Below are positions 1 to 215 of a stretch of 215 nucleotides of DNA, one piece after another. The stretch lies in the NCBI RefSeq assembly GCF_003334335.1, contig NZ_QOWQ01000243.1; one strand, 5' to 3'. Origin of the DNA: Escherichia coli. Its GTDB lineage: Bacteria; Pseudomonadota; Gammaproteobacteria; Enterobacterales; Enterobacteriaceae. Made by a program: the position numbers and the translations under genes. The notes under the pieces were generated by a model. The model searched no databases, was not told the DNA's origin, and worked only from the letters and a program-made list of their open reading frames with translations. Each line of letters starts with the position of its first letter. The stretch's first letter is position 1.

Positions 1-215
1 ACGGAATTTATCCGTGAAGGTGTGGGCGTTCATGCGTTTAACGGCGAAATCTTTGTGCAGCCGGTCTGGGATACGGAAACCACGCAGTTATTCCGTACGC
101 GTTTTAAAGCCGTGAGTCCGAAACGGGTGGACACGCCTGGACACGGTATGGGGAACCGTTTTCTGCGGGCCGGTGTGGAGGTCGATCGATATGGCCGTGC
201 CGTCGCGTACCATAT
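1..215 (+). CDS. Phage portal protein, lambda family (gpB homologue); internal fragment, partial at both 5' and 3' ends, codon phase 0 at nt 1
   Basis: Seen in sequence: frame +1 is open across the full window (71 codons plus 2 nt), while frames +2 and +3 contain stops (e.g. TGA at nt 14-16 in frame +3 and TGA at nt 113-115 in frame +2). Translation: TEFIREGVGVHAFNGEIFVQPVWDTETTQLFRTRFKAVSPKRVDTPGHGMGNRFLRAGVEVDRYGRAVAYHI. Established knowledge, recalled from memory and not database-verified: lambda gpB contains a segment of the form IREGVAMHAFNGELFVQATWDTSSSRLFRTQFRMVSPKR...RAGV, which aligns colinearly with this translation at roughly 55-60% identity. The matches are strongest in IREGV, HAFNGE, FVQ, WDT, LFRT, VSPKR and RAGV. 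Codon usage (cgt, ggc, gtg, ccg, gaa, aaa) is typical of enterobacterial genes. Confidence 0.85.

What the first reader, a model, noticed from the sequence alone, without database searches (positions are those of the whole stretch)
1..215. Window lies inside a lambdoid phage or prophage head-morphogenesis module (portal gene)
The translated frame +1 matches the lambda-family portal protein. In lambdoid genomes the portal gene sits just downstream of the large terminase gene and upstream of the head protease/scaffold, decoration and major capsid genes. This places the window in a mobile, phage-derived region even though no element boundary is visible here. It is a context marker rather than a novelty.
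Basis: partly seen in the sequence, partly recalled or inferred. Interest (0 to 1): 0.3.

Follow-up and report, generated by a model that had tools for sequence, protein, structure and literature searches.

The report
Fragment of phage 21 portal gene
The window is an ordinary internal piece of the well-studied portal (head-entry ring) gene of the lambda-like coliphage 21, a gene also found in prophages of about a third of complete E. coli genomes.

Summary
Confirmed and ordinary. Frame +1 is the only frame open across all 215 bases. Its 71-residue translation matches the lambda-family portal models: Pfam PF05136 at E=1e-10, NCBIfam TIGR01539 portal_lambda at E=2e-28, and PHROG 21 at E=8e-22. 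The DNA is 100% identical to phage 21 gene 4 (portal). It lies in frame and covers codons 132-202 of a 530-codon gene. The same sequence occurs in phage ev017 and in many E. coli prophages; 1,860 of 5,426 complete genomes carry a copy at 90% identity or more. In phage 21 and in an E. coli Nissle 1917 prophage the gene order is small terminase, large terminase, small W-like head-completion gene, portal, protease/scaffold, decoration protein, major capsid. Diverged copies differ mostly at third codon positions (dN/dS about 0.04-0.09), so frame +1 is the frame under selection. By alignment to the solved lambda portal (8k38) the window encodes lambda gpB residues 135-205, which lie in the wing domain. 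No RNA family, stable fold, promoter, terminator or meaningful repeat is embedded. Prophage versus free phage cannot be decided from 215 bases.

The parts
1..215 (+). Internal fragment of a phage 21-type portal gene (lambda gpB family). It covers codons 132-202 plus the first two bases of codon 203 of a 530-codon gene, and encodes part of the portal wing domain (equivalent to lambda gpB residues 135-205).
   Evidence: Only open frame. 100% identity to, and in phase with, phage 21 gene 4. Matches PF05136, TIGR01539 and PHROG 21. Alignment to the lambda gpB structure 8k38, with wing domain boundaries 24-249 taken from PMC10721106. dN/dS 0.04-0.09 in frame +1.

Best explanation
The window is a piece of coding sequence from the portal gene of a phage 21-type lambdoid phage or prophage of E. 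coli. Shown here: it is in frame, identical to phage 21 gene 4 codons 132-202, a member of the lambda gpB portal family, and under purifying selection. Inferred from the lambda paradigm: twelve copies of the protein form the ring at the one special vertex of the prohead. That ring nucleates head assembly, docks the terminase-DNA complex, provides the channel through which DNA is packaged and later ejected, and then binds the W-like adaptor protein for tail joining. The 71 residues encoded here belong to the wing domain, the outer part of the ring that lies inside the capsid and faces the coat-protein shell. They are not in the clip or the tunnel loop, which contact terminase, adaptor and DNA. 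Whether the source molecule is a free phage genome, an intact prophage or a defective prophage cannot be decided from 215 bases. Prophage copies are far more numerous in the records searched.
For: Single open frame. Profile matches to lambda-family portal models: PF05136 E=1e-10, TIGR01539 E=2.1e-28, PHROG 21 E=8e-22. 100% DNA identity to phage 21 (M81255.1, OL657228.1), ev017, PhiR5_1 and others, annotated as portal, and to many E. coli chromosomes, annotated as phage portal protein. The window is in phase with CDS 2824-4416, at codons 132-202. The full-length phage 21 protein scores 712.9 bits against TIGR01539 (curated cut-off 172.7) and 335 bits against PF05136. It also matches the solved lambda portal gpB at E=8.8e-214 over residues 5-523. 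Gene order is terminase small, terminase large, W-like, portal, protease/scaffold, decoration, major capsid. Against nine diverged copies, no stop codon appears in frame +1. In the seven copies that differ by 3-56 bases, most differences (67-100%) are at third codon positions. dN/dS is 0.04-0.09 for the six copies with a usable estimate: five at 93-96% DNA identity, plus Gifsy-1 (159 of 215 bases identical), where synonymous sites are close to saturation. Wing domain boundaries and portal roles are from PMC10721106 and PMC4669245.
Against: Nothing contradicts it. There are three limits. The window holds no start, stop or flanking gene of its own, so the intactness of its own gene and the state of its element are unknown. 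The domain assignment rests on sequence alignment to lambda gpB (52% identity over this stretch), not on a structure of the phage 21 protein. Function is inferred from lambda and from phage 21 genetics, not tested here.
Confidence: 0.97

Rival explanations
1. The window comes from a decayed portal pseudogene in a defective prophage remnant. In that case the sequence is portal-derived but no longer makes a functional portal.
For: Such remnants exist. In E. coli 2013C-4974 only window bases 1-39 survive, in a truncated portal pseudogene fused to a truncated gene G. The Nissle 1917 copy sits in a prophage whose integrase is truncated beside an IS3-like element.
Against: The window is 100% identical to the gene of viable phage 21 and has no stop or frameshift across 71 codons. 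In the spread sample of E. coli copies, 29 of 30 cover at least 99% of the window and lie under a 'phage portal protein' annotation; across all matches, 1,863 of 1,864 records have a copy covering at least 80%. The fetched reference copies all sit in annotated portal CDSs, and where the coordinates are given they span 1,581-1,602 bp.
Confidence: 0.08
2. Besides coding for the portal, the window holds a second functional element, such as a structured RNA, an antisense small ORF (for example 88-213 on the minus strand, 41 aa) or a regulatory site.
For: Two short minus-strand ORFs and one short plus-strand frame +2 ORF are listed mechanically. There is an imperfect inverted repeat at 1-16/81-96 and a 5-bp hairpin at 1-15.
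Against: No Rfam match at E up to 1. Folding energy is no better than shuffles on either strand (z=+0.74 and +1.71). No promoter-like or terminator-like site. Synonymous sites are free to change (pS 0.13-0.23 in close copies, 0.73 against Gifsy-1), which argues against an overlapping constraint. The repeats are short two-copy chance-level matches.
Confidence: 0.01
3. The open frame and its portal resemblance are due to chance.
For: None.
Against: E-values of 1e-10 to 2e-28 against three independent profile libraries, and 100% identity to an annotated, genetically characterised gene.
Confidence: 0.001

Closest known systems
Phage 21 gene 4 portal protein (GenBank M81255.1 / OL657228.1, UMO75419.1)
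   Same: Identical DNA over all 215 bases, in the same reading frame, at codons 132-202.
   Different: Nothing within the window. The source replicon of the window is unknown. Many prophages, and phages such as ev017 and PhiR5_1, carry the identical stretch.
Bacteriophage lambda portal protein gpB (PDB 8k38 and related entries; Pfam PF05136; NCBIfam TIGR01539)
   Same: Same family and same position in the head operon. The full-length phage 21 protein aligns to gpB over residues 5-523 at E=8.8e-214. The window aligns without gaps to gpB 135-205 in the wing domain.
   Different: Only 37 of 71 residues (52%) are identical in this stretch. Synonymous sites are saturated, and lambda-type B genes were not detected at the DNA level by blastn. 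It is therefore a different allele class (21 type) rather than lambda's own B gene.
Gifsy-1 (Salmonella) and N15 / phi80 portal genes
   Same: Homologous lambda-family portals in the same gene position. Gifsy-1 is 60/71 identical in protein, with 82.9% DNA identity over bases 1-140. N15 is 38/71 identical in protein.
   Different: More diverged, and from other hosts or phage lineages. The second half of the window (about residues 47-71) is the variable part.

Membership tests
Lambda-family portal protein (Pfam PF05136 Phage_portal_2; NCBIfam TIGR01539 portal_lambda) | Significant match of the window's translation to the family profile | tested here: met
   PF05136 i-E=1e-10, 41.7 bits. TIGR01539 E=2.1e-28, 99.1 bits. 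PHROG 21 E=8e-22. The fragment alone is below the 172.7-bit whole-protein cut-off, but it covers only 71 of 457 profile positions.
Lambda-family portal protein (Pfam PF05136 Phage_portal_2; NCBIfam TIGR01539 portal_lambda) | The whole protein passes the curated family cut-off | tested here: met
   Tested on the phage 21 gene that contains the identical 215 bases: TIGR01539 712.9 bits against a cut-off of 172.7, covering profile positions 1-457, and PF05136 335.4 bits. The window's own full gene is not available.
Lambda-family portal protein (Pfam PF05136 Phage_portal_2; NCBIfam TIGR01539 portal_lambda) | Canonical portal fold (wing, stem, clip, crown) forming a dodecameric ring | not tested
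   Inferred from sequence homology to the solved lambda gpB dodecamer (8k38, E=8.8e-214; domains from PMC10721106). No structure prediction or fold search was run, because it would add nothing at this level of similarity.
Lambda-family portal protein (Pfam PF05136 Phage_portal_2; NCBIfam TIGR01539 portal_lambda) | Reading frame maintained by purifying selection | tested here: met
   No stop codon in nine diverged copies. In the seven copies that differ by 3-56 bases, 67-100% of the differences are at third codon positions. dN/dS is 0.04-0.09.
Lambdoid head-morphogenesis module | Gene order on one strand: small terminase, large terminase, W-like, portal, protease/scaffold, decoration, major capsid | tested here: met
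   Seen in phage 21 and in the Nissle 1917 prophage, around DNA identical to the window. Not testable on the window itself.
Integrated prophage (as opposed to a free phage genome) | attL/attR, an integrase, and host genes at the borders | not testable with these tools
   The window is 215 bases with no flanks. Identical copies occur both in phage records and in E. coli chromosomes, for example beside icd in Nissle 1917.

The most novel reading that the evidence does not exclude
The most novel reading the evidence leaves open is a second function carried within the coding sequence. For example, this wing-domain segment, whose second half is the variable part between 21-type and lambda-type portals, might carry a nucleic-acid signal or an antisense product. 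It might also be a preferred recombination or deletion junction in prophage decay, since one deletion end maps to window base 39.
Probability: 0.01. Interest if true: 0.3.

Novelty: already known. Interest (0 to 1): 0.04.

Why it matters
It matters only as a context marker. The window shows that its source is phage-derived DNA of the phage 21 / lambda head-gene type, which is very common as prophage in E. coli (1,860 of 5,426 complete genomes). The gene, its protein family, its structure (through lambda gpB) and its role in head assembly and DNA packaging are textbook knowledge. Nothing here opens a new question.

Tried and rejected
(1) I looked for a second, non-coding feature and found none. 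Rfam at a permissive E-value gave no match. RNA folding of both strands was no better than shuffles. The promoter and terminator scan found nothing. The repeat scan found only short two-copy matches and one 75%-complementary inverted repeat. (2) The alternative-frame ORFs (14-115 +, 30-134 -, 88-213 -) were rejected as mechanical. Substitutions follow the frame +1 codon pattern, and synonymous sites vary freely. (3) I tried to decide prophage versus free phage. This is not possible from the window, because identical copies exist in both kinds of record. (4) Plasmid hits are few: 10 records, 9 of them non-mobilizable, and many of them 150 kb to 1.4 Mb. They do not change the reading. (6) Structure prediction, large protein-database searches and metagenome scans were deliberately not run, because 100% identity to a characterised gene makes them uninformative.

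Full report
Observation. The 215-base window has one frame, +1, that is open from end to end (71 codons plus two bases). The other five frames each carry between one and four stop codons. The ORF lister returns only three short mechanical ORFs of 33-41 aa in other frames. The frame +1 translation is TEFIREGVGVHAFNGEIFVQPVWDTETTQLFRTRFKAVSPKRVDTPGHGMGNRFLRAGVEVDRYGRAVAYH.

Is it a portal? Three independent profile libraries say yes. NCBIfam gives the equivalog model TIGR01539 portal_lambda at E=2.1e-28 and 99.1 bits, positions 103-173 of 457. PHROGs gives phrog_21 'portal protein' at E=8e-22. The fragment falls below the NCBIfam whole-protein cut-off (172.7 bits) only because it covers 71 of 457 positions.

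Exact identity. Megablast against GenBank phage records finds 19 records, all Escherichia phages. Seven of them are 100% identical over all 215 bases, among them both phage 21 records (M81255.1, the 'head gene operon', and OL657228.1, the complete genome), ev017 and PhiR5_1. In each case the match lies under a portal annotation. In OL657228.1 the window lies at 3217-3431, and the portal CDS runs 2824-4416. The offset of 393 is a multiple of three, so the window covers codons 132-202 of a 530-codon gene in the annotated frame. The full-length phage 21 protein scores 712.9 bits on TIGR01539, spanning the whole profile, and 335.4 bits on PF05136. It aligns to the solved lambda portal gpB (8k38 and six further entries) at E=8.8e-214 over residues 5-523.

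Context. In phage 21 the order from cos is: small terminase (gene 1), large terminase (gene 2), a 207-bp W-like head-completion gene (gene 3), portal (gene 4), protease/scaffold (genes 5 and 6), decoration protein (shp), major capsid protein (gene 7), an FI-like gene, an FII-like gene, then the tail genes. All are on one strand. The same order surrounds a 100% identical copy in the E. coli Nissle 1917 chromosome. That copy sits within a lambdoid prophage that begins beside icd and ends before sitD.

Distribution. Among 5,426 complete E. coli genomes, 1,860 carry at least one copy at about 90% identity or more, with a median of two copies and a maximum of five. Of the 2,974 places found, 2,967 are on chromosomes. 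By best hit per record, 663 records are at 99% identity or more, 893 at 95-99% and 307 at 90-95%. PLSDB has 10 records with a copy, nine of them non-mobilizable. The sequence is thus a very common prophage allele. The window alone cannot show whether its source is a phage genome, an intact prophage or a remnant.

Selection on the frame. I compared the window codon by codon with nine diverged copies. None has a stop codon in frame +1. For the five copies at 93-96% DNA identity, differences by codon position (1, 2, 3) were 1/1/9, 1/1/7, 2/1/12, 1/1/10 and 1/1/8, and dN/dS was 0.06-0.09. An O157:H7 copy had three differences, all synonymous. Gifsy-1 of Salmonella had 56 differences (11/5/40), 60 of 71 residues identical and dN/dS 0.04, though its synonymous sites are close to saturation. 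N15 and the lambda-like HK630 retain 38 and 37 of 71 residues, with synonymous sites saturated. This is the signature of a protein-coding sequence read in frame +1. The freely varying synonymous sites also argue against any overlapping nucleic-acid element.

Which part of the portal. The HMMER alignment places phage 21 residues 132-202 opposite lambda gpB residues 135-205, without gaps. In the cryo-EM structure of the lambda virion, gpB has a wing (24-249 and 368-452), a stem (250-279 and 343-367), a clip (280-342) and a crown (453-511). A wing loop at 208-218 morphs to fit the coat-protein shell (PMC10721106). The window therefore encodes only wing-domain residues and ends just before the equivalent of that adaptive loop. 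The first 46 or so residues are well conserved between 21-type and lambda-type portals. The last 25 or so are the variable part.

How it works. The steps shown here are identity, family membership, reading frame, selection and genomic context. The mechanism is inferred from established knowledge of lambda and its relatives. Twelve portal subunits form the ring at one vertex of the prohead. The terminase-DNA complex docks on it, DNA is translocated through its channel, terminase leaves after cutting at the next cos, and the W-like adaptor and FII-like stopper then bind to allow tail joining (PMC4669245; PMC10721106). The wing segment encoded here would contribute to the body of the ring that faces the capsid interior and shell, rather than to the terminase-, adaptor- or DNA-contacting clip and tunnel loop.

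Search for anything else. There is no Rfam match at E up to 1. Predicted folding is no more stable than dinucleotide shuffles on either strand (z=+0.74 and +1.71). There are no promoter-like or terminator-like sites. The repeat scan found only short two-copy direct repeats and one imperfect inverted repeat. Nothing suggests a second feature.

Comparison with the known, and novelty. This is the known phage 21 gene 4, a member of the lambda gpB portal family, and every family feature that could be tested was met. It differs from lambda's own B gene in allele class. It shows 52% protein identity over the window, and blastn finds no DNA match to lambda-type B genes, with only 70-72% identity to N15 and phi80 over bases 10-128. 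The finding is already known. Its value is as a marker that the source is phage-derived DNA, and interest is very low.

Noticed in passing
L013:5608-6151 (E. coli 2013C-4974, NZ_CP027587.1); corresponds to window 1-39: Only the first 39 bases of the window survive here. A truncated portal pseudogene is fused directly to a 5'-truncated tail chaperone G gene, which implies a deletion of the head genes whose left junction falls inside the window's coordinates. The large terminase gene is also truncated. This decayed prophage carries the type III effector genes nleH and cif, plus IS3 copies.
   Followed up: partly
L003:1-40215 (E. coli Nissle 1917, NZ_CP022686.1): The 100% identical copy sits in a lambdoid prophage that starts next to icd. 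The integrase is truncated, with an IS3-like ISEc52 beside it. An ompC-like porin gene and iss (increased serum survival) lie between the Q antiterminator and the terminase genes. The prophage is probably unable to excise, but it has a complete-looking structural module.
   Followed up: no
MW057783.1 3157-3369 (hit H78): A record named 'Campylobacter phage CJLB-4' (48,361 bp, host C. jejuni) has a lambda-type portal match with the same identity and score as lambda-like coliphages, at lambda-like coordinates. It may be lambda DNA deposited under another name.
   Followed up: no
window 1-180 (aa 1-60) vs phrog_3993: PHROG 3993, labelled 'unknown function' (195 positions), matches the window at its C-terminal end (positions 135-194, E=1.5e-16). 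It looks like a family made of N-terminal portal fragments from truncated prophage genes rather than a distinct protein.
   Followed up: no
M81255.1 2990-4582 (L002): The 1990s phage 21 head-operon record labels the product of gene 4 as 'head-tail preconnector gp5', the same product name as gene 5. This is an annotation slip that could mislead automated transfer.
   Followed up: no
PLSDB hits H139-H148: Copies occur on 'plasmid' records of 17 kb to 1.4 Mb, nine of ten non-mobilizable. Several are so large that they may be chromosome pieces or phage-plasmids labelled as plasmids.
   Followed up: no
window 141-215 vs Gifsy-1 (L006) and lambda-type portals: DNA similarity to Gifsy-1 stops at window base 140, and the last 25 or so residues are the most variable between portal alleles. 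This is consistent with a variable wing surface segment or a mosaic boundary.
   Followed up: partly
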